This document shows, one piece after another, positions 1 to 62,788 of a stretch of DNA of 64,000 nt. Numbering within the stretch: the first letter of the stretch is position 1; each line of letters opens with the position of its first letter. Where the stretch lies: the sequence record NC_041936.1, one strand, 5' to 3'. The translations under genes were made by a program, and so were the position numbers. The notes beneath the pieces were generated by a model. The model was not told the DNA's origin and ran no database searches. It saw only the letters and a program-made list of their open reading frames with translations. The DNA is from Escherichia phage ECD7.

Positions 1-130
1 CACATCAAAAGTTGATCAGGAAGAACACCAGGTCATCAAGGGTGACGATTGGGGTAAAATGGCTGGACGTTCAGAAATGTCCTACATTTTAGGAATCGAA
101 CTGCCACCGCTTGAGATTGACAACGCTTAA

Positions 131-718
131 CTAAATATCTAACCAAGACAAGTCAGATCCGCCCAAGATTTTTTCGACGGCGGATCTATTTTCTTGATGA
201 TATAAGTTAAAACATGGTATCCCATGTCTACGGGCAACATAAACAGCAATTCGAGTTCCTCCCGAAACGATTCCATTAACTTCTTTCGCCCAAAATATCA
301 CACAATCTACAGGGTCATCAAGTGTCTCACCTAAGACTTGAGCAACATTTCTAGAAAACAGATTTTGCATGTATAACGGTATAGAACGAGGATTATCATA
401 AACGTGTTCTAATTCATCCATCGCCAGATTTTTTTGTTCTAAGGTTTGCCATGCAATCACATCATGACCGTTATGCTTGTGGTCATAAAACTTCCAATTT
501 GGAATGAAAATTTTTCTATAATCTGGATCGTAATACTTCATGAAAGCATTGTCCATACCGTAAGCCCCTCCAGAATGCGCTACAACGCGATTTTCTGACA
601 ATACCCTCCCAATGGTACTAGCCATTATCAAAATGTCGCTAGGCGCTTTTCTAGAGCCGATTAAAGCACATCTACGAAGTGGTTTTACTCCAAATAGATC
701 TTGTAACTGGTCAAACAT
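131..718 (-). CDS. hypothetical protein, SLOG/DprA-LOG-like Rossmann fold (tentative)
   Basis: 195-aa ORF with ATG start; glycine-rich loops HSGGAYGMD and VSGGTRIA resemble SLOG/DprA/LOG nucleotide-binding motifs. Confidence 0.5.
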   Translation of the reverse strand: MFDQLQDLFGVKPLRRCALIGSRKAPSDILIMASTIGRVLSENRVVAHSGGAYGMDNAFMKYYDPDYRKIFIPNWKFYDHKHNGHDVIAWQTLEQKNLAMDELEHVYDNPRSIPLYMQNLFSRNVAQVLGETLDDPVDCVIFWAKEVNGIVSGGTRIAVYVARRHGIPCFNLYHQENRSAVEKILGGSDLSWLDI

Positions 719-1100
719 AATATTTCCTCCATAGAAAGCAATATCATACTACAAGTTAATAACAAATACAAGTATCCGCGTAGCGGAAGCGAGCACAGCG
801 AGCAATAAAACACTTCCAGTAATTGATTAATAAATGTTCGAAACAAATTTTTATTATTCTATAAGATAAGTCTTCGTTTTGATCATAATTTAATCATACA
901 TGTAAAAACTACACAAAAGGATATCGCTTCGCGAACTCCTACGGAGTATAACATTTGTGTTACAATATGTAGTGATTAATAATTAACCAAAGATACATTT
1001 TCTATGTTCTAAAGATCTTTCTTCGTTTTGATCATAATTTAATCAAACAGTATTAATATTGTGCACATGTAAACTAAAATTATGTTAATAACAGATACAA

Positions 1101-1128
1101 AAAAGCCGCCCCAAAGGACGGCTAATGT
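1101..1128 (-). terminator. rho-independent terminator-like hairpin
   Basis: GC-rich imperfect hairpin GCCGCCCC..GGACGGC followed by T-run on minus strand, just downstream of ORF 1132-1569. Confidence 0.4.
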
Positions 1129-1131
1129 TAA

Positions 1132-1569
1132 TTATTTGTTGATAACGATCTGATTTCGGCGAATGGTAACATTACTCTTAGAGATGATCAGATCATCCGG
1201 CACTACGTTAGTTTTGTATGGTTGGAAGCGAACAAGCATCTGATTGCGTTTAGACCCTTCCTTAATCTTGATTTCCATCTGGATATTGTTGCCTACGTGA
1301 GCAACCGCAATTTCACCTTTATTCTCATAGACCCACTTGCTGGTAACGTCTCCAGCAAAAGCCTTAATAACTTGCAATGCTTCGTCGTATGCGGTAGAGC
1401 TGTGAACTTTCAGAAGGCCAGCCGTAGCAAGACGTGAGCAGGTGATCGCCGGAGATTGCCAAACATCAACATTAATTTGCTCAATCAGAGTAACACCGCC
1501 CTGATCAACTGCTTTGAATGCTTCGAACATTGCCTTTTTCATTGCTACGTGGTTTTTACGGAATTTCAT
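1132..1569 (-). CDS. hypothetical protein
   Basis: 145-aa ORF, ATG start, terminator-like hairpin immediately downstream (approx 1101-1128). Confidence 0.55.
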   Translation of the reverse strand: MKFRKNHVAMKKAMFEAFKAVDQGGVTLIEQINVDVWQSPAITCSRLATAGLLKVHSSTAYDEALQVIKAFAGDVTSKWVYENKGEIAVAHVGNNIQMEIKIKEGSKRNQMLVRFQPYKTNVVPDDLIISKSNVTIRRNQIVINK

Positions 1570-1615
1570 AATTAGTCACCTCTATTGATTAGTTATTCAG
1601 AATATTAATTACAAA

Positions 1616-1891
1616 TCAGGACATTGCCCGTTTGAATGCGTCCATTATAACAGTGTTATTTGGCATGTCAACACGTTTTTGAACTTTATTTTTAAATTTT
1701 TTGTTGATGTGGTGTTTACGATAAACAACCTTTTCACGGTTGGCGTAAGCCTCGCGTGCGTCTTTTACCATCAACCATGCCTTAGCCGCATCTTGTCCGC
1801 TGATCCCGCCAATCTTCTTAGCAATATCAACAAAATTAAGACCGTGGTCTTCGCGTAGCATGTAAACCATTAACGCTGTTTTCTTGTCCAT
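1616..1891 (-). CDS. hypothetical protein (possible HTH)
   Basis: internal ATG (MDKKT...) chosen because it overlaps the stop of the upstream ORF in an ATGA arrangement; track ORF extends to 1999. Confidence 0.4.
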   Translation of the reverse strand: MDKKTALMVYMLREDHGLNFVDIAKKIGGISGQDAAKAWLMVKDAREAYANREKVVYRKHHINKKFKNKVQKRVDMPNNTVIMDAFKRAMS

Positions 1892-2088
1892 CACTTCGCC
1901 CCATTGACGATTAACAGGATAGTGATTAGCACCGGAAACTGGATCATGATAGTGCCAATAAACCGGATAAATGCATTTTCTGACTTCCACACATGACATG
2001 CGACTAGCTGATAGACCATTGTTGAAACCAGAACTAGGATATAAACCGAAAGCGGTGTAACTTCGATTAGTCGGGAAATCTCATTCAT
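1891..2088 (-). CDS. hypothetical small membrane protein
   Basis: 65-aa ORF, hydrophobic stretch VYILVLVSTMVYQLVA and C-terminal PVLITILLIV. Confidence 0.4.
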   Translation of the reverse strand: MNEISRLIEVTPLSVYILVLVSTMVYQLVACHVWKSENAFIRFIGTIMIQFPVLITILLIVNGAK

Positions 2089-2250
2089 ACTTCACCTCAT
2101 ACATTCATAAACACAACAACGAATAATACAGTAACAGTTATCAACGCCATTTTCAACCCCATATTCATAATATGTTCTTCGCCTCACTATGGACAGTAGC
2201 ATGTCGATGCGTGCCATTATAGACATCTAAATCGCTCTGTCAAGCACAAA

Positions 2251-2279
2251 AACAAAAAAGCCACCCCGAAGGATGGCTG
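2251..2279 (-). terminator. rho-independent terminator downstream of hoc
   Basis: AGCCATCC-TTCG-GGGTGGCT hairpin followed by TTTTTTGTTTTT on minus strand. Confidence 0.6.
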
Positions 2280-2289
2280 ATAGATTTCA

Positions 2290-3504
2290 TTAAGCAGGAT
2301 GCGTTTCACGAATGCGTAGAACTCGCTCTAACGTATCTCGGTCCAGTTTATGTAACTCTTTGGAATGATACATGAAACCATTGCGAGATTCCATGCAAGT
2401 GCAATCACTATATTTTTCTTCCGCTGCCGCGATTGTCTCCAGATCTTTGGCGTACTTGCTGGTTGAATAAACTTCTCGATCACGCCACTCTAACCCAGAC
2501 TCATTGAATTTAACAATCTCGTCAAATACCCACCATCCAATGTAGATAAATGAAGTTTTGCGCCACGGGATCGGGTGTACGTAACGAAACATTTTAACAA
2601 CTTCCATTGAACATTTTCGGCTTGTACTTGCTGCAACTTCTACTGTTTCATCTTCGATCTGTTGATATAGTTTAGCAACACACCAGAATTTGGCTGTGTC
2701 ATCGTAAGTAGCACTCTCTTTGAACAGATGACCGTCTGGAGTGATAGAAAATCCTTCCAGTGCTTCGCCGACCTCACTACCGATCAGAGTCGGTGACATT
2801 TGCCCTTCGCGCTGCAAATACCAGTTATATTTGATCGTCAAATTAGGCATACCGCTAGAATCGCCTACAATGTCCTCTGACACAACATAATTAAGTGATA
2901 TCTCATTACCTAGTGCCACGGTCTTTGATTCCACCACATCCTGATCTACGTTCATTGTTGCCAGCATTATTTTAGTCGATGCGCTAGCGGCTGAATCTTC
3001 CGACTCGCCCCACACTTTTACAGTATACACGCCGTTTTTATCTGCTGTAAATTCTTGGATCGTAATATCCTTTTTTGTGTCTATAACGTCATCGCCCTTA
3101 CTCCAACTATAATGTAGTTCATAGTTGTCTGCTGGAGTCTTCCCACCAGAAAAATTTACTGTTGCATGTAATTCTACGTCTTTTTGTGATGATACGTAGA
3201 AATGCTGCGGTTCGGTGATATTTACGATTAATTCAGCTTCTTCCATGAGGAAAACTTCAGATTCTACTGATGTCATCGTATCGGTATCTTGTACCGTTAC
3301 TTTATAGCTACCCGCATTTTCACTTGTTGCGTCTGCTACAGTTAGCGTAGCTGTGCTATTTTCATGCGGTTGGTCGTCTTTTGTCCATGTATATGTCAAA
3401 TTGCTGGGTAATGGTTCGTCACCCGCTACAGTCGCCGTTAAGGTGAAACCATCTCCAGCAAGAAAACATCTTTTGTTAGATTGTATTGATACTGTGAAAG
3501 CCAT
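2290..3504 (-). CDS. hoc: Hoc-like outer capsid decoration protein with Ig-like repeats
   Basis: 404 aa; repeated Ig-like modules (..YTWTKDD.., ..YSWSKGDD..); position upstream of inh-uvsW as in T4; terminator downstream. Confidence 0.7.
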   Translation of the reverse strand: MAFTVSIQSNKRCFLAGDGFTLTATVAGDEPLPSNLTYTWTKDDQPHENSTATLTVADATSENAGSYKVTVQDTDTMTSVESEVFLMEEAELIVNITEPQHFYVSSQKDVELHATVNFSGGKTPADNYELHYSWSKGDDVIDTKKDITIQEFTADKNGVYTVKVWGESEDSAASASTKIMLATMNVDQDVVESKTVALGNEISLNYVVSEDIVGDSSGMPNLTIKYNWYLQREGQMSPTLIGSEVGEALEGFSITPDGHLFKESATYDDTAKFWCVAKLYQQIEDETVEVAASTSRKCSMEVVKMFRYVHPIPWRKTSFIYIGWWVFDEIVKFNESGLEWRDREVYSTSKYAKDLETIAAAEEKYSDCTCMESRNGFMYHSKELHKLDRDTLERVLRIRETHPA

Positions 3505-9005: not shown

Positions 9006-10092
9006 TGTCTCAATAAAACTTTATCAGGATTATGAGGCATTTCTAAATCATCGCTTTATAGAATTGGGTGCTACCTTTGTTACAATGACTCTGCGTGATT
9101 CTATTCGTGGGGTGAACGAAGGATTGTTGCAATTCTATGATAATAAGGCGATGCATACAAAATTAAACGGGAGAGAGATCATTCAGATTTCGCTATCAAC
9201 TGCTAATACAGATGAAGTGTTTAACCGAATCTATGGGATCTCTCATAGTAATGTAACAATTGACCAAAAATCCGACAACATTTTAACATTCCAGTTAAAG
9301 AGCTATCACGAAACACTAAACCTTAAATTTTCCCGCTCATTGACAAATAACGCTGTTAATAACGTAACTAGCATGATTGATGCCATCTATAAGGAAGTTC
9401 CTTTATGGAAACCTACTATAAAGGGTGATAACGTTGTTATTCCTCGTTGTCCGTGGGTTAGTACCATAAATGACTATATGGATTTTGTGAGGGCATACGG
9501 GCAAAGCGTAGAAACCGAGTCTTTCGTGTATTGCTGGGAAGATTTTGATGGTATAACGATCGCTGGACACGATACAATATTAAAAAATGAGCCAATACCA
9601 GCTATAATCTGTGAGCCTAGACTCATGGGGCAATTTATTGATATGTCGCCTAATCTGATGGTTTTTAATTTCGAGTGGCAGACTAAGAGCAATGCTAAAG
9701 TTAAAAATTCATTTAGCAATGTGACATACACAACTATTGATTTTGTTACTAAGCAGTATAATAAAATTATTGTTGGTAATGGGGATAATATTGCACACTT
9801 TGCTCATGGTGGAGCTTATGGTGATTTAACTTATAAGAATGCGTTTTTGGAAGGGTCTAAACTCGCCACAATAGAACAATATGATTCATATGCTACCGCC
9901 GTGTGTCACGGTAATTTTTCGTTGCGCCCCGGTATGGTTATTCGATTCTTTGATGAGAAGCAACAAGCACGCAATGATTTTATTGTTGACGAAGTGGTGC
10001 ATGAAATTAGCCGAGAGCAATCATTAACTCACCTGTATATGATCGGTAACAGCGAAGAATTACAGGAAGTCAAATTTGAAGGTAAGATATAA
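8983..10092 (+). CDS. 27: baseplate hub subunit gp27
   Basis: N-terminus MQRTGFPNVSIKLYQDYEAFLNHRFIELGATF..GLLQFYD matches recalled T4 gp27. Confidence 0.85.
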   Translation: MQRTGFPNVSIKLYQDYEAFLNHRFIELGATFVTMTLRDSIRGVNEGLLQFYDNKAMHTKLNGREIIQISLSTANTDEVFNRIYGISHSNVTIDQKSDNILTFQLKSYHETLNLKFSRSLTNNAVNNVTSMIDAIYKEVPLWKPTIKGDNVVIPRCPWVSTINDYMDFVRAYGQSVETESFVYCWEDFDGITIAGHDTILKNEPIPAIICEPRLMGQFIDMSPNLMVFNFEWQTKSNAKVKNSFSNVTYTTIDFVTKQYNKIIVGNGDNIAHFAHGGAYGDLTYKNAFLEGSKLATIEQYDSYATAVCHGNFSLRPGMVIRFFDEKQQARNDFIVDEVVHEISREQSLTHLYMIGNSEELQEVKFEGKI

Positions 10093-15746: not shown

Positions 15747-17798
15747 TTACATTTTAAATTTATCTGGCATTGCGTCTACAGATACCAGATCAGCGATAAG
15801 CTGACGTAGAGTTGCCTTATCTGCTTTCTTACGTTCGGTTTTAGCTTCGCTAATGAAGCTGGAGAAAGACAGGTCAGAAGCAGGTTTAACAACACCCTCA
15901 CGGATGAATGCATCACCGTCCGCGATCATCTCACCAGATTCTTGTAATGCTGCCAGTTCACTTTTGTTCATAATATGTGCCTCAATGTAATAAGTTTCTT
16001 GTGAATCCGTCGATGCCGTAGCACGAGTTACCGTATCAAAGGATAACACAACACCGCGAGGAAGTAAAATCTCGCATTCTTTGTAAGCAAATGCTTTGTT
16101 ACCTACTGGCAATACAGGGATGTTTTCCGCGCCAGCGATAGAGAAAGCAACATTAGCGCCACCTTCACCGCGAGAGCCAGCCATAGAATCAACACCAGCA
16201 ACGGCACTAGCCACGTTTGCATTCCAGCCACCAAAAATATTAGGCGCAAGGGAAGTGCTCACATAGTTTTTAAAGTAAAACGCTTTTTGCTTACGTGCAG
16301 TTTCCCACATTTGCGACCGGAAGTCCATACCACGATACAGAATAGTACCCGGATCAAGTTTAACACCATAGTTAGAGAAGGCATTATCCAGTGCATCGCA
16401 CATCTTGACCAATTCTTCTGGATCTGCGATTCCCTCAAACTCTTCCAGCTTGCGATCAGTTAGGAAGTTGTTCATATTGATGTATGCTGCATCGGCATAT
16501 TCGCTCAACACAAAACCTTCCGCGCCCGGCAGATCAAGATCAATATCTGCCATCATTTCACCCATGTTGCTAGCAATTGCTTCAAACATACCGGACGCAA
16601 CATTACGAAGGGCATCGGTTTTAATCTGGGTGATATGACTACGCAGCATTTCAGCTTTTACATCTGCTGGCATAGACTGGTCTACTCGATCCATTGCCAG
16701 GGCGGTGATCTTGTTTTCGAATACTTCCTCGCTCATGATTTCTTTTAAGCGTTTGATTGAGGCTGCGATAACTTCCGCAGACAACGGATCATATTGATCC
16801 TGAACTTTTACCAGTTCGCTTACTGCGTATTTTGCATCGGCTTCGCTTTCAAAAATAGTACGCATGAAACCATAGCGAGTGATAATATCACTTGTCCAGT
16901 CATTCAGAGAACGGGCGGTTGAACGTTCTAAGGCTTGACGGTCAATCAGAGTATTAAACTGTTTCTTAGGTTCGGCTTCGGTGATATCTTCTTCCGGTTT
17001 AAGATTAATTTTTTCTGGATGATTCACGTAGTCGCTGTTATAGGTCGCTTGAGTTTTCAGCATTTCTTCTTTAGTCAAACGAGATTTAGCCGCTACGCGT
17101 TGTTCTGCTTCCGCGTTTCGTTCTTCTTCTGACACAAGACTAGCCGCATACGCCTCATCTTTAGTCAGAGATTCACCAGTAGCCTTAGATACCCAGCGAT
17201 CACCTAAATCACTTTCTACTTTAGTGAACAAGGATTCATCAAGTTTAATCCCTTTAATCTTATCAATCGCCATCCCGCGACGTTTGACAACAACTAAAGC
17301 GATCTTTTTGCTGGTCATTACTTCCTGCTGGAATACTTCAAACTTCGGTGTACGACGCACCAAACGCTCTATAACGCGCTTAACCAGTTCGGTCTTACCT
17401 TTCATGCGGGATACGTTAAAACGGAACATAACAGCGTCTAATTGCGCTTTACGGGCTGTTTCCATAACCACATCAAAAGCACTTGCCATAACTGCAATCG
17501 GGTTATCACCTAGACCATTTTTAAGCTGTACAATACGACCGCTTTTGTTCATTTCACACAGTACAACGTGTGCGGTCTTGTCACCCATACGAATAATTTT
17601 AGGTGTTTTGTTGGTGAAGTTGCAAAGACGGACAATCACATCTTTATCGCGTGTCTGTACTGCAAAAAGCTGTTTAGGATTCTGCTTAGGCTTTAAGCAT
17701 TGTACCGGAGCAATACTGCCAAAGTTTTCTTCCTCTTCCGTCAACAGCCATTTCTCGAAAGATTCAATCATTAGATCGTCGATTTCTAAGTTAAACAT
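15747..17798 (-). CDS. alt: Alt ADP-ribosyltransferase (internal head protein)
   Basis: 683 aa (T4 Alt about 682); LYRGMDF, FKNYVSTSLAPNIFGGW, ECEILLPRG; position between gene 54 and ligase. Confidence 0.85.
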   Translation of the reverse strand: MFNLEIDDLMIESFEKWLLTEEEENFGSIAPVQCLKPKQNPKQLFAVQTRDKDVIVRLCNFTNKTPKIIRMGDKTAHVVLCEMNKSGRIVQLKNGLGDNPIAVMASAFDVVMETARKAQLDAVMFRFNVSRMKGKTELVKRVIERLVRRTPKFEVFQQEVMTSKKIALVVVKRRGMAIDKIKGIKLDESLFTKVESDLGDRWVSKATGESLTKDEAYAASLVSEEERNAEAEQRVAAKSRLTKEEMLKTQATYNSDYVNHPEKINLKPEEDITEAEPKKQFNTLIDRQALERSTARSLNDWTSDIITRYGFMRTIFESEADAKYAVSELVKVQDQYDPLSAEVIAASIKRLKEIMSEEVFENKITALAMDRVDQSMPADVKAEMLRSHITQIKTDALRNVASGMFEAIASNMGEMMADIDLDLPGAEGFVLSEYADAAYINMNNFLTDRKLEEFEGIADPEELVKMCDALDNAFSNYGVKLDPGTILYRGMDFRSQMWETARKQKAFYFKNYVSTSLAPNIFGGWNANVASAVAGVDSMAGSRGEGGANVAFSIAGAENIPVLPVGNKAFAYKECEILLPRGVVLSFDTVTRATASTDSQETYYIEAHIMNKSELAALQESGEMIADGDAFIREGVVKPASDLSFSSFISEAKTERKKADKATLRQLIADLVSVDAMPDKFKM

Positions 17799-28974: not shown

Positions 28975-29301
28975 TCAACTGCCACCGTAAATTTCAACGA
29001 TCTGCGCTGGAGTCAGCCCGTCTACATTAATCAGACTATCAAGCCCAATACTACGGAAACCTTCAACTGCAATTTCATATACTGGCAAAGATGTTTCTGA
29101 TTCTTTACGCGGTTTTTCAACATTAGGAACTAACCACTTTTCGTATGTTTCGAAAGGCATCAGTGCCGGATCTCGCGTAGCGATCATATCTCGGACAGTA
29201 CCATCTTTCTTAGTAAACTGCAAAGAGTGAGTACCGACAGAAAACATTTTCTTTAGTGCTTCACGAAGTGCGATATTATCAATTTGTTCAGTCATTATCA
29301 A
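28975..29301 (-). CDS. hypothetical protein
   Basis: 108-aa ORF between HNH gene and cd. Confidence 0.5.
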   Translation of the reverse strand: MIMTEQIDNIALREALKKMFSVGTHSLQFTKKDGTVRDMIATRDPALMPFETYEKWLVPNVEKPRKESETSLPVYEIAVEGFRSIGLDSLINVDGLTPAQIVEIYGGS

Positions 29302-42165: not shown

Positions 42166-42887
42166 TTAACTTTCTTAAATTTAGCATCCAGTTCCTCGAA
42201 AGATTTAAACTGGTCTTTTGCTACGATAACATCAATATCTACCATGTTTTCGAACAGATATTTCTGGAATGCTTCATCTTCGATGTTCGGAATCGCTGAT
42301 TGCTGCATGAAACGTGAATCATCGTAGTTCAGGAATTTATCTACTTTCTTAGCTTTCAGAAGGAAGTTAGCGCCTTCGAACGGACATACGATGTTTACAG
42401 GTTTTTCGCCCAATTCCGTGTTTACGTTGCTCATTGCCAGAATCTTGTCATAAATTTTCTTACCGAAGCGGAATTTAAATACTTTACCTTCGTTTTCCGG
42501 CGCTTTCGGATCTTTCATGACCAGAATGTTTGCGAAGTAAGAAGATTTACGCTTAACATCTTGATATTCTTTATTGTTGGTGTTGTACAGGTCATTTTCG
42601 CTAATGTATTTGCACACAGGGCAAGAATCAAAATCACCGTGGGTGCTAGGGCAGTTTTCCCAATAATACTTACCATTTACTTTGAAAGAATGGTTTACAA
42701 GGTTGATGATCGGTAAACCGTCTTCGGTGCGTGCCGGAAGAAAACGAATCACCGCTTCACCGTTACCCGCCGCGTCAGTTTTAATCTTCCACTCTTTCGG
42801 ATCTTCTTTGGAGAAGCCGTTGCTACCTTTCAGTGCTGCCAGTTGAGCTTGCAGTTTGGAAGAATCTTGACGACGAAAAATGTTCAT
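42150..42887 (-). CDS. 32: ssDNA-binding protein gp32, N-terminal and core domains (ORF ends prematurely)
   Basis: ..[32 protein letters not shown].., ..[12 protein letters not shown].., ..[15 protein letters not shown].., ..[14 protein letters not shown].. match recalled T4 gp32; start set to ATG MNIFRRQ..; ORF stops at TAG 42150-42152 before the acidic tail. Confidence 0.8.
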
Positions 42888-42953
42888 AATTATACCTCTT
42901 TTATACATTAACTATTAATTTGCTAGATTATTATACAGATTTAAATTTACTTG

Positions 42954-43634
42954 TCAACTATTTGTTTCGGCTTTTAATTGAGATATTTCTTTACACTCTT
43001 TAACTACTTTAACAAATAATGCTCTTGCTTTTGCGGCGTCAATAACAAGTAGTTTCTTGTACGCCTTCATTTTAACACTATAAGTTTGCCAAATCAAGTC
43101 TTTGGCTACCTTGTCGTGTTCGTCGATTATATTTAGAAAGCTATCTAACAACATAAACGACTCAAACGATATAATCCGATTTTGCAGTAGTTTAAAAATA
43201 CCGCTTGTTTCGGTTGCGGGATTATATGTAATTAGCTCTTTAAGAGTAACCCCGCGTTTCTCTGAGAAGTATACCAGACTTTTAATGTCATCGTCAAATC
43301 GTGTTGCAGCATCAGTGATCTTACCGATATACTCCATGTAAAATCCGTATGCGTCAACATCAGTGATTTCACCTACCCATGCATCGGTATTAGCTACCAG
43401 ATTGCTTAGGAATAGGAAGTATAATTCTCTTAGATTGTACTTTTCCGCTAATTTTGCGAAATAATACTTATCTCTGCGTTTATTGAATGCGGCATCAGAC
43501 AACCGCATCCTCCAATTGTATTTTACGCAATCATAACGCCCGTTCATGTGAGCTTTCATCATGCAATATAACATATACACAGATTTAGCATTAATTCGCA
43601 TATCTGGATCTGGAGGAAGACGGTTTCTGATCAT
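42954..43634 (-). CDS. 59: helicase loader gp59
   Basis: ..AKSVYMLYCMMKAHMNGRYDCVKYNWRMRLSDAAFNKRRDKYYF.. matches recalled T4 gp59. Confidence 0.8.
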   Translation of the reverse strand: MIRNRLPPDPDMRINAKSVYMLYCMMKAHMNGRYDCVKYNWRMRLSDAAFNKRRDKYYFAKLAEKYNLRELYFLFLSNLVANTDAWVGEITDVDAYGFYMEYIGKITDAATRFDDDIKSLVYFSEKRGVTLKELITYNPATETSGIFKLLQNRIISFESFMLLDSFLNIIDEHDKVAKDLIWQTYSVKMKAYKKLLVIDAAKARALFVKVVKECKEISQLKAETNS

Positions 43635-49762: not shown

Positions 49763-50902
49763 ATGACACAAGATATAGAATTACGCAATACTGGAATTAG
49801 GTTTGCGCATTTCGACGAAGACTCTGCGACATTTACCAGCATTTCAGAAAATAACTCTGTGATGTATAAGCTGGAAGTGCGCGGATCTAATGCGGATTCT
49901 ACCAAACCAGCAAGGATTAGATTTAATGGAGTGGAGATCGTTGGCACTGGCTATGAAAATGGCCTAAATTTTAAAGTTCTTACTCCAACTGGACAACTAC
50001 ACGAAGAAAAGGTATTCTATGGTCGCGGTGCTGTTTTGGCAATGCGTGATTATCTTTCTTTGCTGAAAGGTGACTATATCATTGCGATGGCAACGCATGG
50101 AGAATTGTTTGCAGATCCGATAAGTGATGATGTATTTTCTAAGCTGGGATCTGTATCATTCCCGAATCACATTTTGTTACAGCAAATGCCTCGTGTATCA
50201 TATGCAGCAATTTATTCTACTAAAATGGGTAAAATTGTGTGCGAAGGTATGCAAGCGACCCACGGGGAAGGACAAGATTCATCTATACAAATTGAGAAAG
50301 TCTATGATACTATAGATGATCTTGCTATAACAGGAACACCACAACGATTTTTAGATTATCCGGTTGAGTATGTTAGCGAAGATGCCGAACATTTCGAGCT
50401 AATACAATGGCCTCACGATGAGATCAGCGCCCCACTTGAGGATTTTAACATAAAGGCAGGTGACAAACTATCAATATCCTTTGAATTGTTCCGTGATAGT
50501 GCCGCAGCCGCAGCCAACGTAACAGCGCGTTTCTATCACAACTACTTCACCGATGGACAATATCAAACTGGTGTTCGATACAATGCCAGCAAAAAAGACC
50601 AATGGGAAAAGTTTGAAGCCGTCTATACCGTACCGGAAGGAGTTGATAGTGTAGTAACTGGTTGTATCAGATATCCAACCAACTCAAGTGAAGGTATTGT
50701 TAAAATTAGAAACATACTAATAACGCCGATCAGTGGAGTCGTCAAAACTACTGGTCCTACTTCATTTGGTGTTAATGGTGTTAGAACAACTCATATTCAG
50801 GATAACGGTGATTTTACTAACCCTGTAATGAGTCTTCTTAAACTGCCTAGAGATAATAAACACATCACATCCAACAACTTTAAAGAGTTCGATGTTGATT
50901 AA
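49763..50902 (+). CDS. 35: tail fibre hinge gp35
   Basis: 379 aa, synteny between 34 and 36, terminator downstream. Confidence 0.75.
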   Translation: MTQDIELRNTGIRFAHFDEDSATFTSISENNSVMYKLEVRGSNADSTKPARIRFNGVEIVGTGYENGLNFKVLTPTGQLHEEKVFYGRGAVLAMRDYLSLLKGDYIIAMATHGELFADPISDDVFSKLGSVSFPNHILLQQMPRVSYAAIYSTKMGKIVCEGMQATHGEGQDSSIQIEKVYDTIDDLAITGTPQRFLDYPVEYVSEDAEHFELIQWPHDEISAPLEDFNIKAGDKLSISFELFRDSAAAAANVTARFYHNYFTDGQYQTGVRYNASKKDQWEKFEAVYTVPEGVDSVVTGCIRYPTNSSEGIVKIRNILITPISGVVKTTGPTSFGVNGVRTTHIQDNGDFTNPVMSLLKLPRDNKHITSNNFKEFDVD

Positions 50903-50913
50903 CATTTTTAACA

Positions 50914-50944
50914 AGCCGATCCTCGTGGTCGGCTTTATTTTTAT
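50914..50944 (+). terminator. rho-independent terminator downstream of gene 35
   Basis: AGCCGATCCTCGTGGTCGGCT hairpin followed by TTATTTTTAT. Confidence 0.6.
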
Positions 50945-51062
50945 ACAGTTGGTTAAATTATAACCAAAACGAAGAAAGATCTTTAGAATATAGAAAAGTT
51001 TGTTTCGGTTAAAAATTAGTCAGTGCCTACGGCACGTCGCGAAGCGATATTTTGTTAACATT

Positions 51063-51070
51063 CTATAAAT
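51063..51070 (+). promoter_or_regulatory. T4-type late promoter (TATAAATA) for gene 36
   Basis: exact TATAAATA about 35 nt upstream of gp36 ATG. Confidence 0.6.
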
Positions 51071-51104
51071 ACTCGGAACTATAACTAATTTTTGAGGTTA
51101 CTTT

Positions 51105-52595
51105 ATGGCAGATTTGAAATATGGATCTACTGTAGGTGGATCTCCCATTTGGACGCAAGGAAACTTGACGATCCAGCCAGCGGGGGATCAGCTTTTCTAC
51201 AAAGGTCATAAAATCTATACCGCTTTTGATAGACCTTCGGCTACCGATTTTGATGCTGTTAGTGCATCCGAAGGTGGAACATTTCAAAAGCAAGTTCATT
51301 TCGAGGAAGGTTTAAGCGTAGGTAGCGCATCGGCTGGAGAAACCAAAAAGAATGGTATCTTTAAAGGTCAGAGTGACGCTGCTAATTTTGACGGCGTAAG
51401 CTGGGGTTTGCATTCATGGAAGTCAATCGGCTTTGTTAATGCCCGTGATGGCGTTATTATGGCGTATATTGACACCACAACGGGCGAATTTAAGTCTAAA
51501 GGGACTATCGAAGGGACAACCATTAAAGACACAGGTCAACGCGTCTATAGCCCTGTTAATAAACCAACGAATAATGATTTAGATTTGGTGTCTCGTCGCG
51601 GTGATACTCTCACAGGAACATATAATTTAAACACTGTCACTGTTAAACTATCGGTTGATTCGAAATTAATTGCAAGGGAACGTGATTTAATTAATTTTGA
51701 TGCGACTAAGATCTATTATGGTAACGTTCTTGATACGTTGGTCTTCCGAAGTAAAGATGAGCCTACCATTTTTGTTAATGGCAAAGAAGGTCGTTTTTAT
51801 CACACCAACAATAAACCAACTAAAGCCGATGTTGGACTAGGAAATGTCACCAATGATGCACAGGTTAAACGTGCTGGTGATATTATGGAAGGTAACTTGC
51901 AAGCGCCTAGAATGTTGGCGACAAACGATCCTGCTGGTCCTAATGAATTGGTTCGTTTGAGCTACTTTGAGAGAAAATCAATGGTAGCAAATCCAACCAT
52001 CATAGGAAACGTTGATTGGAACACTCTTATTAATCGCGGTATCTATCGTGTGGAAAATGCTGGGTCGGGTACTAATAAACCGTCTGATAGCTATTATAAC
52101 GGCGTTTTGATGGTATATCGCCCAGAAGATGCGGTCGGCACTCGTCGAATTGTTCAGGTGTATTATCCTGAATCTATTGACCATCCGATGTGCTGGCGTT
52201 CTTGTTCTAATGAATCATGGACTGCATGGAACTATGTAGATCACCGTAAATTAGCCGATATTCGCTATGTTAACGTAACTGGCGATACCATGACAGGACC
52301 GTTAACTGTTCCGGCTGCAAACGGTGTTAGAACGGCTAAAACTAACTATAACGGGGATAACTGTTATGCGGCGTTAAGCGGTGCTGATGGTACTGCTATG
52401 ATTCACCGCATTAGTGATATTAAAGGGACCGAAAAGCTGGGGATCACCCACGACTCAAAGGTCGTGTTTTTCCGTTCTAGAAACAATACTCAAACCGTGG
52501 ACCGCTATCAGCTTTATCATGAAGGCAATAAGCCTACTCCGGCTGATGTTGGAGCGGTTCCACTTAATGCGGTGATTGATTTTGGTACTTTCTAA
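51105..52595 (+). CDS. 36: long tail fibre distal subunit gp36
   Basis: N-terminus MADLKYGSTVGGSPIWTQGN.. matches T4 gp36 N-terminus; late promoter TATAAATA 51063-51070; longer than the T4 protein as I recall it. Confidence 0.8.
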   Translation: MADLKYGSTVGGSPIWTQGNLTIQPAGDQLFYKGHKIYTAFDRPSATDFDAVSASEGGTFQKQVHFEEGLSVGSASAGETKKNGIFKGQSDAANFDGVSWGLHSWKSIGFVNARDGVIMAYIDTTTGEFKSKGTIEGTTIKDTGQRVYSPVNKPTNNDLDLVSRRGDTLTGTYNLNTVTVKLSVDSKLIARERDLINFDATKIYYGNVLDTLVFRSKDEPTIFVNGKEGRFYHTNNKPTKADVGLGNVTNDAQVKRAGDIMEGNLQAPRMLATNDPAGPNELVRLSYFERKSMVANPTIIGNVDWNTLINRGIYRVENAGSGTNKPSDSYYNGVLMVYRPEDAVGTRRIVQVYYPESIDHPMCWRSCSNESWTAWNYVDHRKLADIRYVNVTGDTMTGPLTVPAANGVRTAKTNYNGDNCYAALSGADGTAMIHRISDIKGTEKLGITHDSKVVFFRSRNNTQTVDRYQLYHEGNKPTPADVGAVPLNAVIDFGTF

Positions 52596-60407: not shown

Positions 60408-61765
60408 CCCTTCTTAAGTTCTTTAAGATCTTTCTTATATTCCTTCATTGCGGTCGTCTTTGTCCAATACTCATATTCACTATGATGTTTATCGGCATCT
60501 TTGACCAGTCGATCATACTCTTCTTGAGTAACGCTATACAATGGCATAGAAACTAGCTTATCGGCGTATGGACGCAGTTTTTCATGTCCATTGATGGATT
60601 GCATTACCTCGGCCTTTTTCTTTCCCTGTAGCTCGATTTCGCCCTTAATTACAAGGTCGATAAATTCGGCTTTAGCCATTGCATAATTGTATGCTTCCAG
60701 CGTTTCCGCTTGCATCAATTCAATGCGTTTATCGACATACCCTAATCGGATTTCGACGAATCGACGGATCAGATCACTAGCTTTATCGAATACTTCAACT
60801 AGACCACGTTCGTTAACTACTACGATATTCTGGGCTACTAACTGCGTTAGTTTAAAATCCTTCATGATTTGCTCATGTCGAGCGGATTCATCTTCGCTTT
60901 TGAAATAATCACGTTTCAGTGTTACTTCAAATCTGAATCCGTCCTTAGAGCAACGGTCATTATATGAGACAATCAGATCTTTTTCTTCCAGTGCATCCAG
61001 TACCGCTACATATTCTTCACGGTCGAACTTATAAGGAACTTCTGATATTGTCAGTTTAGTCTTGCCGTTTAGTTCATATATACCCTCAAGAATAACACCA
61101 TCGCGATCATCTCGCGGGATAACTTTACCCGTGAATTTTGGGAATTGAACACTAGGTTCTTTATCCAGTTTTCCGGCAAGTGCTAGCTCTGTGCATTCAA
61201 TGAGGCTTTCCAGTGAATGCGGTAAAATGTCAGTTTTATACCCTGAAGCAATACCACTAATACCATTAGCCAATACCATTGGCACAACTGGCAAGTAGAA
61301 CGCTGGCGGGATGTGTTCCAGATCTTCGTGCTTAGGTGCGCAATTCATATCTTTATAGATTTTAAAGAAGTTTTCATGTACACGAGCAAAGATATAACGT
61401 GCCGCACCTGCTTTCTGGACTAAACGCGATCCGAAGTTACCTTGACCGTCAAGCAGTGGAGTATTATTGCTCCATGTATTCGCCATGAGTGATCCGGCTT
61501 CTACGGCATTAGTTTCGCCGTGGTGATACCCCAACTCAGCGACACCAGATCCAATATCTGCCATCTTACGGAATTTCTTACGGTCGCCTTTACTCTTTTG
61601 CAAAGCACATTCCATAACAAAGCGTTGCACTGGTTTAAGCCCATCCACTAATTGAGGAATCCCGCGTTCCTCGGCAGAATAGATCGCATATTCCTTAGCT
61701 TCATTATGTACAATGCTTTCAAGGCTGCGGTAAGTAACTGATTTATTCATCTTCACCTCATACAC
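60404..61765 (-). CDS. 52: DNA topoisomerase II medium subunit gp52 (GyrA-like)
   Basis: ..DGLKPVQRFV.. GyrA/ParC N-terminal signature; 453 aa (T4 gp52 about 440). Confidence 0.85.
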   Translation of the reverse strand: MYEVKMNKSVTYRSLESIVHNEAKEYAIYSAEERGIPQLVDGLKPVQRFVMECALQKSKGDRKKFRKMADIGSGVAELGYHHGETNAVEAGSLMANTWSNNTPLLDGQGNFGSRLVQKAGAARYIFARVHENFFKIYKDMNCAPKHEDLEHIPPAFYLPVVPMVLANGISGIASGYKTDILPHSLESLIECTELALAGKLDKEPSVQFPKFTGKVIPRDDRDGVILEGIYELNGKTKLTISEVPYKFDREEYVAVLDALEEKDLIVSYNDRCSKDGFRFEVTLKRDYFKSEDESARHEQIMKDFKLTQLVAQNIVVVNERGLVEVFDKASDLIRRFVEIRLGYVDKRIELMQAETLEAYNYAMAKAEFIDLVIKGEIELQGKKKAEVMQSINGHEKLRPYADKLVSMPLYSVTQEEYDRLVKDADKHHSEYEYWTKTTAMKEYKKDLKELKKG

Positions 61766-62461: not shown

Positions 62462-62788
62462 TTATTGTTCTACAGTATAACCGTTGTTTTCAAGCCATAC
62501 AATAACAATCTTTTCACCAATTTCATCGAGCATTTCATCAGAGCCATATTCTTTGATGAAAATCGATGGATCGTTATTGCTTACTACGTGCTGGATCACA
62601 ACATGTTCAGGAATTGCGTCTAGCAGTTCGCTATGATCATACTCATTAACGATATCTTCAACACTAACATTATTAACCAAATCAACATCATCCATAGTCA
62701 CAGTAACGCGACCGGACGGACGCAATGAATATTGGCTACTTTCAACTTCAACATGTGCACTTTCGCAAGTAACTTTCATATCAACCAT
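62462..62788 (-). CDS. hypothetical acidic protein
   Basis: 108-aa ORF, terminator-like hairpin downstream. Confidence 0.5.
   Translation of the reverse strand: MVDMKVTCESAHVEVESSQYSLRPSGRVTVTMDDVDLVNNVSVEDIVNEYDHSELLDAIPEHVVIQHVVSNNDPSIFIKEYGSDEMLDEIGEKIVIVWLENNGYTVEQ

What the first reader, a model, noticed from the sequence alone, without database searches (positions are those of the whole stretch)
719..1131. 410-bp non-coding region with 26-bp direct repeats
No ORF is evident. TCTTCGTTTTGATCATAATTTAATCA occurs twice (about 874-899 and 1019-1044), each around a TGATCA palindrome, in an AT-rich region with an additional small hairpin (about 940-960). It could be a replication origin, a regulatory RNA, a packaging or recombination site, or a decayed mobile element.
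Basis: seen in the sequence. Interest (0 to 1): 0.4.

Follow-up and report, generated by a model that had tools for sequence, protein, structure and literature searches.

The report
Conserved hairpin-and-palindrome DNA cassette, four copies
The 26-bp repeat is real and belongs to a conserved non-coding DNA cassette (tiny GC hairpins plus a 77-bp AT-rich palindrome) that occurs four times in every RB49-like coliphage and once in an unrelated E. coli prophage; I think it most likely marks a DNA-replication start zone, but that is not proven.

Summary
The window is an RB49/Phi1-like T4-type coliphage (Krischvirus). An exact 26-mer sits at 871-896 and 1020-1045, no ORF or family match lies in 719-1131, and a hairpin sits at 935-947.

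The repeat is the right arm of a ~77-bp AT-rich imperfect palindrome ("core"), preceded by GC mini-hairpins with 3-nt loops, mostly C-GNA-G.

- **Copies.** There are four cores per genome: A and B here, C between genes 35/36 (window 50946-51047), and D between gene 3 and ORF130, outside the window. All three loci matched in all 57 Krischvirus records.
- **Selection.** Among nine phages the mini-hairpins never vary, cores vary at 6.5-7.8% of sites, and spacers at 18-37%.
- **Stability.** The A/B locus is the least stable duplex in the window at the 150-bp scale.
- **Distribution.** The cassette also lies in a 1.27-kb non-coding region, next to 22-bp-spaced iterons, in a prophage carried by about 1% of E. 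coli genomes. No other phage family was found.
- **Negatives.** No consensus promoter, Rfam match or pseudogene signal.

Best reading (confidence about 0.3): a structure-based DNA element acting as a replication-initiation zone. Rivals are a transcriptional punctuation element, a recombination or selfish repeat, and a non-coding RNA.

The parts
719..1131 (.). Whole non-coding interval between the DprA-like gene (131-718, minus strand) and ORF165 (1132-1569, minus strand). It holds cassette units A and B.
   Evidence: The region is present at 95.5-100% identity in 57 Krischvirus records.
775..787 (.). Mini-hairpin of unit A, TCCGC-GTA-GCGGA (C-GNA-G triloop on the plus strand). It is followed by the direct repeat GCGAGC-ACA-GCGAGC (789-803).
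   Evidence: None of the 26 columns 775-800 varies among 9 phages.
824..900 (.). Core A: a 77-bp AT-rich imperfect palindrome (outer arms TGATTAA/TTAATCA, inner arms TCGAAAC/GTTTTGA). It contains the first 26-mer (871-896).
   Evidence: 6.5% of its columns vary.
924..934 (.). Mini-hairpin B1, TCGC-TTC-GCGA. On the minus strand it reads TCGC-GAA-GCGA and contains d(GCGAAGC).
   Evidence: Invariant among 9 phages.
935..947 (.). Mini-hairpin B2, ACTCC-TAC-GGAGT (GTA loop on the minus strand).
   Evidence: Invariant among 9 phages.
973..1049 (.). Core B: the second copy of the AT-rich imperfect palindrome. It contains the second 26-mer (1020-1045) and the 10-bp palindrome AAAGATCTTT.
   Evidence: 7.8% of its columns vary.
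1050..1103 (.). Variable AT-rich spacer between core B and the terminator.
   Evidence: 36% of its columns vary among 9 phages. A weak promoter-like match lies at 1053-1080 on the plus strand.
1104..1123 (-). Intrinsic terminator hairpin of ORF165 (AGCCGTCC-TTTG-GGGCGGCT followed by a T run). It borders the cassette and is not part of the repeat.
   Evidence: Annotated as a terminator in GEC-3S and G2248.
50946..51022 (-). Core C: the third core copy, in the 35/36 intergenic region. It has the same orientation relative to its flanking genes as A and B.
   Evidence: Nearly invariant in 8 phages, although the flanking tail-fibre genes fall to 90% identity.
51023..51047 (.). Twin mini-hairpins of unit C. 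On the plus strand they read GTGCC-TAC-GGCAC (51023-51035) and TCGC-GAA-GCGA (51037-51047).
50914..50934 (+). Terminator hairpin after gene 35, bordering unit C.
   Evidence: Annotated as a terminator in G2248. The literature reports a conserved terminator between genes 35 and 36 (PMC1524935).
51064..51071 (+). Late promoter TATAAATA of gene 36, 16 bp beyond the mini-hairpins of unit C.

Best explanation
The repeat belongs to a cis-acting DNA cassette that works through DNA structure rather than through a product. Each unit has one or two very stable GC mini-hairpins (4-5-bp stems; 3-nt loops that are G-N-A closed by C-G in all but one case) followed by a ~77-bp, ~80% A+T imperfect palindrome.

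I propose (inferred) that the AT-rich core is a DNA-unwinding element that opens or extrudes under negative supercoiling. The mini-hairpins on the exposed strands would stay free of single-strand-binding protein and give primase or the helicase loader an entry point. The three cassette loci would then act as initiation zones for early, origin-dependent replication. This phage genus lacks MotA and middle promoters, which drive the T4 R-loop origins oriF and oriG.

As a by-product, the dispersed 110-bp copies are substrates for homologous recombination.

Shown: the anatomy, copy number, selective constraint, helical instability, the homologue in the prophage, and the rearranged junctions. Inferred: unwinding, priming and origin activity.
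For: 1. **Selection acts on the structural sub-elements.** Among 9 phages the mini-hairpins have 0 variable columns of 26 and 27. Cores vary at 6.5-7.8% of columns, like the neighbouring genes (7-8%). Spacers vary at 18-37%.
2. **Hairpin stems differ between copies but stay paired, always Watson-Crick.** Examples: tccgc/gcgga, ctcc/ggag, gtgcc/ggcac; in prophages CGCC/GGCG becomes CGTC/GACG. The closing pair is C-G in 16 of 16 hairpins, and 75 of 80 cells pair with no G-T. The hairpins were picked as hairpins, so the pairing percentage itself is biased.
3. **Loop changes usually fall on the middle base and keep G-N-A.** GTA to GGA, GTA to GCA, GAA to GCA, GAA to GTA.
4. **C-GNA-G mini-hairpins are in excess and clustered.** The window has 14 against 5.8 +/- 2.3 expected, and 5 of them lie in the cassettes. 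The prophage has 5-6 within 240 bp.
5. **Such mini-hairpins are documented at priming and initiation sites:** the phage G4 complementary-strand origin, RSF1010 ssiA, and N4 early promoters (PMC13037366).
6. **The A/B locus is the least stable duplex of the window.** It ranks first at the 150-bp scale (z 4.0) and second and third at 100 bp.
7. **Both strands fold about equally** (z -1.7 and -2.25). That fits a DNA palindrome.
8. **In the prophage the cassette shares a 1.27-kb non-coding region with about 7 iterons** (ACCTACACTA, mostly 22 bp apart), an origin-like layout.
9. **The three Krischvirus loci lie in late-gene regions** beside genes 3, 24 and 35/36. T4 oriE, oriF and oriG lie in late-gene regions near strand switches (PMC3016281). 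The gene-level neighbourhoods of the T4 origins are from my own knowledge.
10. **RB49 has no motA and no middle-promoter consensus** (PMC1524935).
Against: - There are no replication data for any Krischvirus.
- No initiator protein or iterons accompany the phage copies.
- The review states that T4 origins share no local motif, so a repeated origin motif would be unusual for this group.
- No good promoter exists to make an R-loop primer. The best sigma-70-like matches score 8-9 of 12, against 12 of 12 for the phage's early promoters.
- The positional match to the T4 origins is only to within several kb and could be chance (my rough estimate is a few percent).
- In units C and D the cassette sits directly upstream of late promoters, which suits a transcriptional role equally well.
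- The prophage protein next to the non-coding region could not be identified as a replication protein.
- In units C and D two substitutions break the outer stem of the long palindrome instead of compensating.
Confidence: 0.3

Rival explanations
1. Transcriptional punctuation or regulatory cassette: a promoter-poor relative of the PeSL cassettes. It would insulate late genes (weak terminators or roadblocks for antisense or read-through transcripts), or act as an upstream element or weak bidirectional promoter for genes 36, 3 and the DprA-like gene.
For: - All copies are intergenic and have the same orientation relative to the gene that starts next to the mini-hairpin end: gene 36, gene 3 and the DprA-like gene.
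- In C and D a late promoter follows within 8-16 bp.
- In B and C a terminator borders the other end.
- The hairpins of C and D are followed by a T-rich run.
- A -10-like TAGAAT on the gene-sense strand is positionally conserved in A, C, D and the prophage. On the other strand (C/T)ATAAT is present in A, B and C.
- PeSL cassettes are an established precedent in this very phage (PMC2839356).
Against: - No consensus -35/-10 pair exists (8-9 of 12). The TATAAT of unit C in this window is TATGTT or TACATT in relatives and GATGAT in the prophage.
- The 4-5-bp stems are poor terminators.
- A 77-bp AT-rich palindrome is not needed for termination.
- The absence of G-U pairs and the symmetric folding argue for DNA, not RNA, hairpins.
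- Unit A has no late promoter next to it.
Confidence: 0.2
2. A dispersed repeat that persists as a recombination 'linker' or selfish MITE-like element. It would have been acquired by horizontal transfer between a temperate coliphage and the Krischvirus ancestor, be homogenised by gene conversion, and have no dedicated molecular function.
For: - It is multi-copy and confined to two unrelated phage groups that share only the host.
- C and D are 91% identical over 110 bp and inverted relative to each other.
- The LF73P4 record carries both reciprocal C/D junctions, which amounts to an inversion of about 84.6 kb with crossovers inside the cassette.
- PeSL-mediated shuffling is known in these phages.
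Against: - All three loci gave matches in all 57 Krischvirus records, with no sign of presence/absence polymorphism.
- Constraint is concentrated on the hairpins and cores while spacers drift. Gene conversion alone does not predict that pattern for A and B, which are only 80% alike.
- No target-site duplications or terminal features of a transposon were seen.
Confidence: 0.15
3. One or more small non-coding or antisense RNAs, transcribed on the plus strand (antisense to the flanking late genes) or as a structured 5' leader on the minus strand.
For: - Units A and C fold into a long hairpin on the cassette strand (z about -2.5).
- Two single substitutions in unit B give G-T wobbles that are allowed only on the plus strand (G2248, Makalu_001).
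- Weak -10-like hexamers exist.
Against: - No Rfam match exists, even at E of 5-10.
- No consensus promoter is present, and the distance to a terminator is inconsistent: 55 nt in B, 14 nt in C, none in D.
- The loops are triloops, not the tetraloops typical of stable RNA hairpins.
- No G-U pairs occur in the mini-hairpins.
- RNAalifold finds no convincing consensus structure.
- Both strands fold about equally well.
Confidence: 0.12
4. A packaging-related site: preferred terminase entry or cleavage near the cassette.
For: - Three independent GenBank records (pEJ01, Skers, kvi) are linearised at the same nucleotide, 17 nt to the right of core D.
- GATC-containing TGATCA and AGATCT motifs sit in the cores. 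They recall the P1 pac hexamers (from my own knowledge).
Against: - Contig breaks at inverted repeats are a common assembly artefact.
- The kvi record appears to lack gene 3 and unit D altogether.
- T4-type headful packaging needs no pac site (established knowledge).
- The two phage groups have unrelated terminases, so a shared recognition site is unlikely.
Confidence: 0.05
5. A remnant of a frameshifted protein-coding gene, or a CRISPR-like mini-array.
For: None beyond the absence of an annotated gene and the presence of a direct repeat.
Against: - No frame is open for more than 56 codons, and no PHROG match appears at E < 0.1.
- All relatives share the non-coding state.
- The repeats are 149 bp apart and are embedded in ~80-bp homologous units, unlike the 28-37-bp repeat and ~32-bp spacer geometry of CRISPR arrays.
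Confidence: 0.02

Closest known systems
PeSL cassettes (promoter-early stem-loop) of phi1/RB49 and other T4-like phages (Arbiol et al. 2010, PMC2839356; Comeau et al. 2014, PMC4122927)
   Same: Both are short, repeated, conserved intergenic cassettes in the same genomes. Both contain stem-loops, and both can serve as sites of homologous exchange between distant loci.
   Different: PeSLs are defined by a consensus sigma-70 early promoter. There are about 50 per genome, mostly in hyperplastic regions upstream of ORFans. This cassette has no such promoter (8-9 of 12 against 12 of 12), only 4 copies, lies in late/core regions, and adds a 77-bp AT-rich palindrome and GNA-triloop mini-hairpins. Genuine PeSL-type sites lie nearby, at 2216-2279 and 1644-1671.
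T4 R-loop origins oriF (uvsY) and oriG (34): a promoter plus a DNA-unwinding element
   Same: Both have an AT-rich, easily unwound segment, occur at several places per genome, and lie in late-gene regions. The genome neighbourhoods are comparable: 24-hoc-uvsY, and 34-36.
   Different: The T4 origins use MotA-dependent middle promoters and share no sequence motif. RB49-like phages lack MotA, and no adequate promoter is evident here. Origin activity is untested.
Single-strand initiation signals and DNA mini-hairpins (G4-type complementary-strand origins, RSF1010 ssiA, N4 virion-RNA-polymerase promoters; review PMC13037366)
   Same: Both have short GC stems capped by G-N-A triloops closed by C-G, including the exact d(GCGAAGC) motif. 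The 5-bp stem and 3-nt loop geometry matches the N4 promoters.
   Different: Those signals act on single-stranded templates with dedicated enzymes (DnaG, RepB', N4 vRNAP). No such enzyme link is shown here, and these hairpins sit in a double-stranded lytic phage genome next to a long AT-rich palindrome.
Iteron-type origins (T4 oriE, plasmid and lambdoid origins)
   Same: In the E. coli prophage the cassette shares one non-coding region with about 7 iterons spaced mostly 22 bp apart.
   Different: The Krischvirus copies carry no iterons. The 149-bp direct repeat here is a duplicated unit, not an iteron array.

Membership tests
PeSL (promoter-early stem-loop) cassette | Consensus sigma-70 early promoter (TTGACA - 16-18 bp - TATAAT) with an upstream AT-rich tract | tested here: not met
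   The scan of 1-2400 finds 12-of-12 promoters at 2243-2216 and 1671-1644 but nothing of 9 of 12 or better in the cores. My own scan gives a best score of 8-9 on either strand of A-D, against 11.5-12.5 for the reference promoters. The -10-like hexamer is not conserved.
PeSL (promoter-early stem-loop) cassette | A stable GC-rich stem-loop acting as terminator or attenuator | tested here: inconclusive
   A true terminator (1104-1123) borders unit B but belongs to ORF165. The cassette's own hairpins have only 4-5-bp stems.
PeSL (promoter-early stem-loop) cassette | Location in hyperplastic regions, upstream of ORFans | tested here: not met
   The copies lie beside genes 24/hoc, 35/36 and 3.
T4-type R-loop origin (oriF/oriG) | DNA-unwinding element (low helical stability) | tested here: met
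   947-1097 is the least stable 150-bp stretch of the 64-kb window (z 4.0). Cores A, B and C are in the top 0.1-0.8% at 60 bp.
T4-type R-loop origin (oriF/oriG) | A promoter (MotA-dependent in T4) reading into the unwinding element | tested here: not met
   There is no MotA box and no consensus promoter. RB49 has no motA gene (PMC1524935). Only weak TAGAAT and CATAAT hexamers are present.
T4-type R-loop origin (oriF/oriG) | Supports initiation of replication in vivo | not testable with these tools
   This needs marker-frequency analysis, 2-D gels or plasmid replication assays.
Iteron-type origin | An array of at least 4 short direct repeats at helical spacing, bound by an initiator | tested here: not met
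   The window has only two ~80-bp units 149 bp apart. Iterons occur only in the prophage homologue.
DNA mini-hairpin / ssi-type priming signal | GC stem capped by a G-N-A (or GNNA) loop closed by C-G, e.g. GCGAAGC | tested here: met
   The hairpins are TCGC-GAA-GCGA, CTCC-GTA-GGAG, TCCGC-GTA-GCGGA and GTGCC-GTA-GGCAC. They are enriched at 14 against 5.8 +/- 2.3 expected.
DNA mini-hairpin / ssi-type priming signal | Directs primer synthesis on single-stranded DNA | not testable with these tools
   Needs a biochemical assay.
N4-type hairpin promoter | A phage-encoded virion RNA polymerase that recognises the hairpin | not tested
   No RNA polymerase appears among the annotated features seen, but the genome was not screened completely.
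Small RNA gene / Rfam family | Match to a curated covariance model, or a promoter-terminator pair bounding a structured transcript | tested here: not met
   The best Rfam hits are far below their gathering scores. The spacing from promoter-like site to terminator is inconsistent.
MITE / transposon remnant | Presence/absence polymorphism, target-site duplication, terminal inverted repeats | tested here: not met
   All three loci matched in all 57 Krischvirus records. No duplications flanking the units were seen in the alignments. The palindromic arms are internal to the core.
CRISPR mini-array | 28-37-bp repeats separated by spacers of about 30-40 bp | tested here: not met
   The repeats are 149 bp apart, and similarity extends well beyond the 26-mer.
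Pseudogene | Residual protein similarity, or an intact gene in relatives | tested here: not met

The most novel reading that the evidence does not exclude
A portable origin or priming module that works by DNA structure alone: GNA mini-hairpins plus an unwinding palindrome. It would have been exchanged between a temperate siphophage and a virulent T4-like lineage, where it replaces the MotA-dependent R-loop origins. Its inverted copies would also let the genome flip an ~85-kb segment between two isomers.
Probability: 0.2. Interest if true: 0.75.

Novelty: new variant of a known kind. Interest (0 to 1): 0.55.

Why it matters
How T4-like phages without MotA start replication is unknown, and even in T4 the origins share no recognisable motif. 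A four-copy, strongly constrained, structure-based cassette gives three precise sites to test by marker-frequency mapping or plasmid assays.

Its presence in an unrelated temperate prophage of the same host suggests that non-coding functional modules, and not only genes, move between virulent and temperate phages.

The inverted copies also explain at least one rearranged genome record. They may cause recurrent assembly breaks in this genus, which is used for phage therapy.

Tried and rejected
- **Rfam:** searched on the window (1-3000) and on the prophage non-coding region. Only sub-threshold chance hits appeared.
- **tRNA/tmRNA scan of the window:** none found.
- **Promoter and terminator scans:** no consensus promoter lies in the cassette. 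The attractive TATAAT of unit C turned out to be specific to this window.
- **RNAalifold on 13 core variants:** no convincing consensus. The long-hairpin model is only partly supported. The inner stem covaries (U-A, C-G, and restored in G2248), but the outer stem shows uncompensated changes in C and D.
- **Searches for further families:** three exact-pattern scans of IMG/VR, one of metagenomes, one of GTDB genomes, and blastn against phages and plasmids. Only Krischvirus and one prophage family were found. One Prolixibacteraceae hit is a chance match in what looks like coding sequence.
- **Identifying the prophage proteins that flank its non-coding region as replication proteins:** nothing came from Pfam, PHROGs, NCBIfam, PDB sequences, the 5.8-billion-protein search or tblastn against phages. 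The AlphaFold model had pLDDT 46 and was unusable, so no fold search was run.
- **Host-factor sites** (IHF, LexA, FNR, sigma-54, MotA box, oriC 13-mer): compared by eye only. None fits in all copies.
- **Python file access:** the first script attempts failed because the locus files are bundled together.

Full report
**Source and setting.** Window 600-1250 is 100% identical to Escherichia phages Phi1, GEC-3S and Cognac, and at least 95% identical to 57 Krischvirus (RB49-like, T4-type) records. The interval 719-1131 lies between a DprA-like gene (131-718, minus strand) and ORF165 (1132-1569, minus strand). It sits downstream of gene 24 and on the same strand as 24.3 and hoc. An intrinsic terminator for ORF165 lies at 1104-1123.

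**Checking the observation.** The 26-mer is exact at 871-896 and 1020-1045, and no shuffle reproduced it. Ungapped similarity reaches 38 nt; gapped similarity reaches about 80 nt at 78-80% identity. TGATCA lies inside each copy. No ORF longer than 23 aa lies inside the region. A 53-aa TTG ORF overlapping the DprA-like start, and all other stop-free stretches, match no PHROG family.

**What the repeat is part of.** A 3-mismatch copy of the 26-mer at 50950-50975 (minus strand) led to a third homologous unit in the 203-bp gap between tail-fibre genes 35 and 36.

- A profile built from the units finds exactly four cores per genome: A (824-900), B (973-1049), C (51022-50946, minus strand) and D. 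D lies between gene 3 and ORF130 at Phi1 62.6 kb, outside the window.
- Each unit is made of GC mini-hairpins with 3-nt loops followed by a ~77-bp, ~80% A+T imperfect palindrome. In A and B the outer arms are TGATTAA/TTAATCA. The inner arms are TCGAAAC/GTTTTGA in A and AACCGAAAC/GTTTTGGTT in C. B, C and D carry the central palindrome AAAGATCTTT.
- C and D are 91% identical over 110 bp. A and B are 80% identical, and B and C 81%.
- In all three loci the mini-hairpin end faces the start of a gene that reads away from the cassette: gene 36, gene 3 and the DprA-like gene. In C and D a late promoter (TATAAATA or AATAAATA) follows within 8-16 bp. RB49 late promoters accept A or T at -13 (PMC1524935).

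**Conservation.** The A/B, C and D loci each gave matches in 57 Krischvirus records. In an alignment of nine phages the variable fraction of columns is:

| Segment | Variable columns |
|---|---|
| Hairpin A region (775-800) | 0 of 26 |
| Twin hairpins B (924-950) | 0 of 27 |
| Cores A and B | 6.5% and 7.8% |
| Spacers between elements | 18-37% |
| DprA-like gene, ORF165 | 7-8% |
| hoc | 43% |

. Unit C is nearly invariant in phages whose flanking tail-fibre genes fall to 90% identity. Selection therefore acts on the hairpins and cores, not on the interval as a whole.

**The mini-hairpins.**

- Their stems differ between copies yet remain perfectly Watson-Crick: tccgc/gcgga, ctcc/ggag, gtgcc/ggcac, tcgc/gcga.
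- Across 16 phage and prophage hairpins the closing pair is always C-G, and 75 of 80 cells pair with no G-T wobble. I chose those sequences because they form hairpins, so the pairing percentage is biased. The absence of wobble pairs and the invariant closing pair are the informative points.
- On one strand the loops read G-N-A. Four loop substitutions among relatives hit the middle base: GTA to GGA, GTA to GCA, GAA to GCA, and GAA to GTA. One (GAA to AAA in unit D, also seen in unit C of UPWr_E1) does not.
- The window holds 14 C-GNA-G hairpins with stems of at least 4 bp, against 5.8 +/- 2.3 in Markov simulations. Five of them are in the cassettes.
- TCGC-GAA-GCGA contains d(GCGAAGC), the archetypal extra-stable DNA mini-hairpin. 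Such motifs are reported at the G4 complementary-strand origin, RSF1010 ssiA and N4 virion-polymerase promoters (PMC13037366).
- Both strands of 770-1103 fold only modestly, and about equally, better than shuffles (z -1.7 and -2.25).

Together these points favour a DNA-level structure over a strand-specific RNA.

**Helical stability.** By nearest-neighbour energies, 947-1097 is the least stable 150-bp stretch of the 64-kb window (z 4.0). The two cores rank second and third at 100 bp. Core C is in the top 1% at 60 bp.

**A homologue outside the genus.** The core also occurs, at 77-80% identity, with the same kinds of mini-hairpins upstream in the same order and orientation, in 56 of 5,426 complete E. 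coli genomes.

- There it lies in an unannotated 1.27-kb non-coding region between divergent operons of a ~35-kb siphovirus-like prophage. The prophage is inserted in hicB and carries a serine recombinase.
- That region also has about 7 copies of ACCTACACTA, mostly 22 bp apart. It has a second repeat, AGAAAGGGATTGG, in 3-4 copies, and 5-6 C-GNA-G hairpins within 240 bp.
- Prophage variants show compensatory stem changes: CGCC/GGCG to CGTC/GACG, and ACGGC/GCCGT to GGGC/GCCC.
- Pattern scans of IMG/VR, metagenomes and GTDB genomes, plus blastn against phages and plasmids, found no third family.
- The flanking prophage proteins could not be assigned any function.

**What it is not.**

- It is not a PeSL cassette. 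It has no consensus promoter, scoring 8-9 of 12 against 12 of 12 for the neighbouring early promoters at 2243-2216 and 1671-1644 (PMC2839356).
- The perfect TATAAT of unit C in this window is TATGTT or TACATT in relatives and GATGAT in the prophage.
- It matches no Rfam family and no tRNA. It is not a pseudogene. Its geometry does not fit a CRISPR array.

**Mechanism.**

- *Shown:* a constrained, multi-copy cassette of stable mini-hairpins plus an exceptionally unstable AT-rich palindrome, shared by two phage groups that have only the host in common.
- *Inferred:* it acts through DNA structure. The core would melt or extrude under superhelical stress. The mini-hairpins would then keep defined stretches free of single-strand-binding protein and offer entry to priming or helicase-loading enzymes, making the three loci initiation zones for early replication.
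- *Context that fits:* RB49 lacks MotA and middle promoters, which drive T4 oriF and oriG. T4's most active origins lie in late-gene regions near strand switches. The cassette loci lie beside genes 3, 24 and 35/36, the same neighbourhoods as T4 oriE, oriF and oriG (the T4 positions are from my own knowledge). The prophage copy adjoins an iteron array.
- *Against:* there are no replication data, no adequate primer promoter and no initiator. T4 origins share no motif. The positional match is loose.

I give this reading about 0.3. The rivals are a transcriptional punctuation or upstream element (0.2), a recombination or selfish repeat (0.15), a non-coding RNA (0.12), a packaging site (0.05) and a pseudogene or CRISPR-like array (0.02).

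**Recombination between copies.** In the LF73P4 record one junction joins the gene 3 flank to the cassette and the end of gene 35. The other joins the gene 36 flank to the cassette and ORF130. Both crossovers fall inside the cassette. This is either a real ~84.6-kb inversion between the inverted copies C and D or a mis-join at that repeat. Three other records are linearised at one and the same nucleotide next to unit D.

**Verdict.** The finding is real, and richer than described. It is an undescribed conserved non-coding cassette with a clear architecture and an unexpected homologue in a temperate prophage. Its function is unresolved, but it can be tested directly.

Noticed in passing
Outside the window: Phi1 NC_009821.1 about 62,585-62,690 (L003 12585-12690): A fourth cassette copy (unit D) lies between gene 3 (minus strand) and ORF130 (plus strand), flanked by two divergent AATAAATA late-promoter-like sites. 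The locus gave matches in all 57 Krischvirus records.
   Followed up: yes
L012 (OZ035795.1 55,943-57,900) and L114 (OZ035795.1 140,890-142,314): The Krischvirus LF73P4 record carries both reciprocal junctions: gene 3 flank + cassette + gene 35 end, and gene 36 flank + cassette + ORF130. This amounts to an ~84.6-kb inversion between inverted cassettes C and D. It may be real or an assembly mis-join.
   Followed up: partly
OP114734.1 end, MW748999.1 end, MN850615.1 start (equivalent to L003 12703/12704): Three independent GenBank records are linearised at the same nucleotide, 17 nt to the right of core D. The kvi record seems to lack gene 3 and unit D. This could be an assembly break at the repeat or a physical feature.
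   Followed up: partly
Beside core C in Phi1 (L004 ~9916-9930; equivalent to window ~50933-50947) and beside core D (L003 12690-12704): A 13-nt sequence, TATTTTTATACAG, lies next to the right end of both cores C and D. It has opposite orientation relative to the core, so in the genome it is a direct repeat while the cores are inverted.
   Followed up: no
window 2216-2279 and 1644-1671 (minus strand): These are typical PeSL-type sites. There is a terminator hairpin (2259-2278), and there are perfect TTGACA-16-TATAAT promoters upstream of the small ORFs between hoc and ORF165.
   Followed up: no
L020 4925-6193 (E. coli H2 chromosome, prophage in hicB): A 1.27-kb non-coding region holds about 7 ACCTACACTA iterons (mostly 22-bp spacing), 3-4 AGAAAGGGATTGG repeats and 5-6 GNA mini-hairpins. 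A hairpin followed by CGACTG appears both upstream and downstream of the unit in some variants. The neighbouring proteins (60, 333, 80 and 155 aa) have no detectable relatives outside Escherichia and Shigella.
   Followed up: partly
L014 871-1587 (UPWr_E1) and L016 1426-1587 (SSG23): A 1-nt insertion just upstream of the DprA-like start codon led one annotation to extend that gene into the cassette region. Another record annotates the 53-aa TTG ORF. Both are probably annotation artefacts.
   Followed up: no
window 50700-51300 compared with 600-1250: The window is 100% identical to Phi1, GEC-3S and Cognac at the A/B locus but at best 99.0% identical to any record at the 35/36 locus. Coordinates also shift by about 930 bp relative to Phi1. 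The source is therefore a mosaic relative, not Phi1 itself.
   Followed up: no
window 29172-29182, 15841-15853, 60837-60851: Further C-GNA-G mini-hairpins lie outside the cassettes (for example TCGC-GTA-GCGA at 29172-29182). The one at 29172-29182 overlaps a 108-aa ORF. Their significance is unknown.
   Followed up: no
window 42876-43026: This is the second least stable duplex stretch of the window. It is a short intergenic region with a consensus early promoter on the minus strand. It is unrelated to the cassette.
   Followed up: partly
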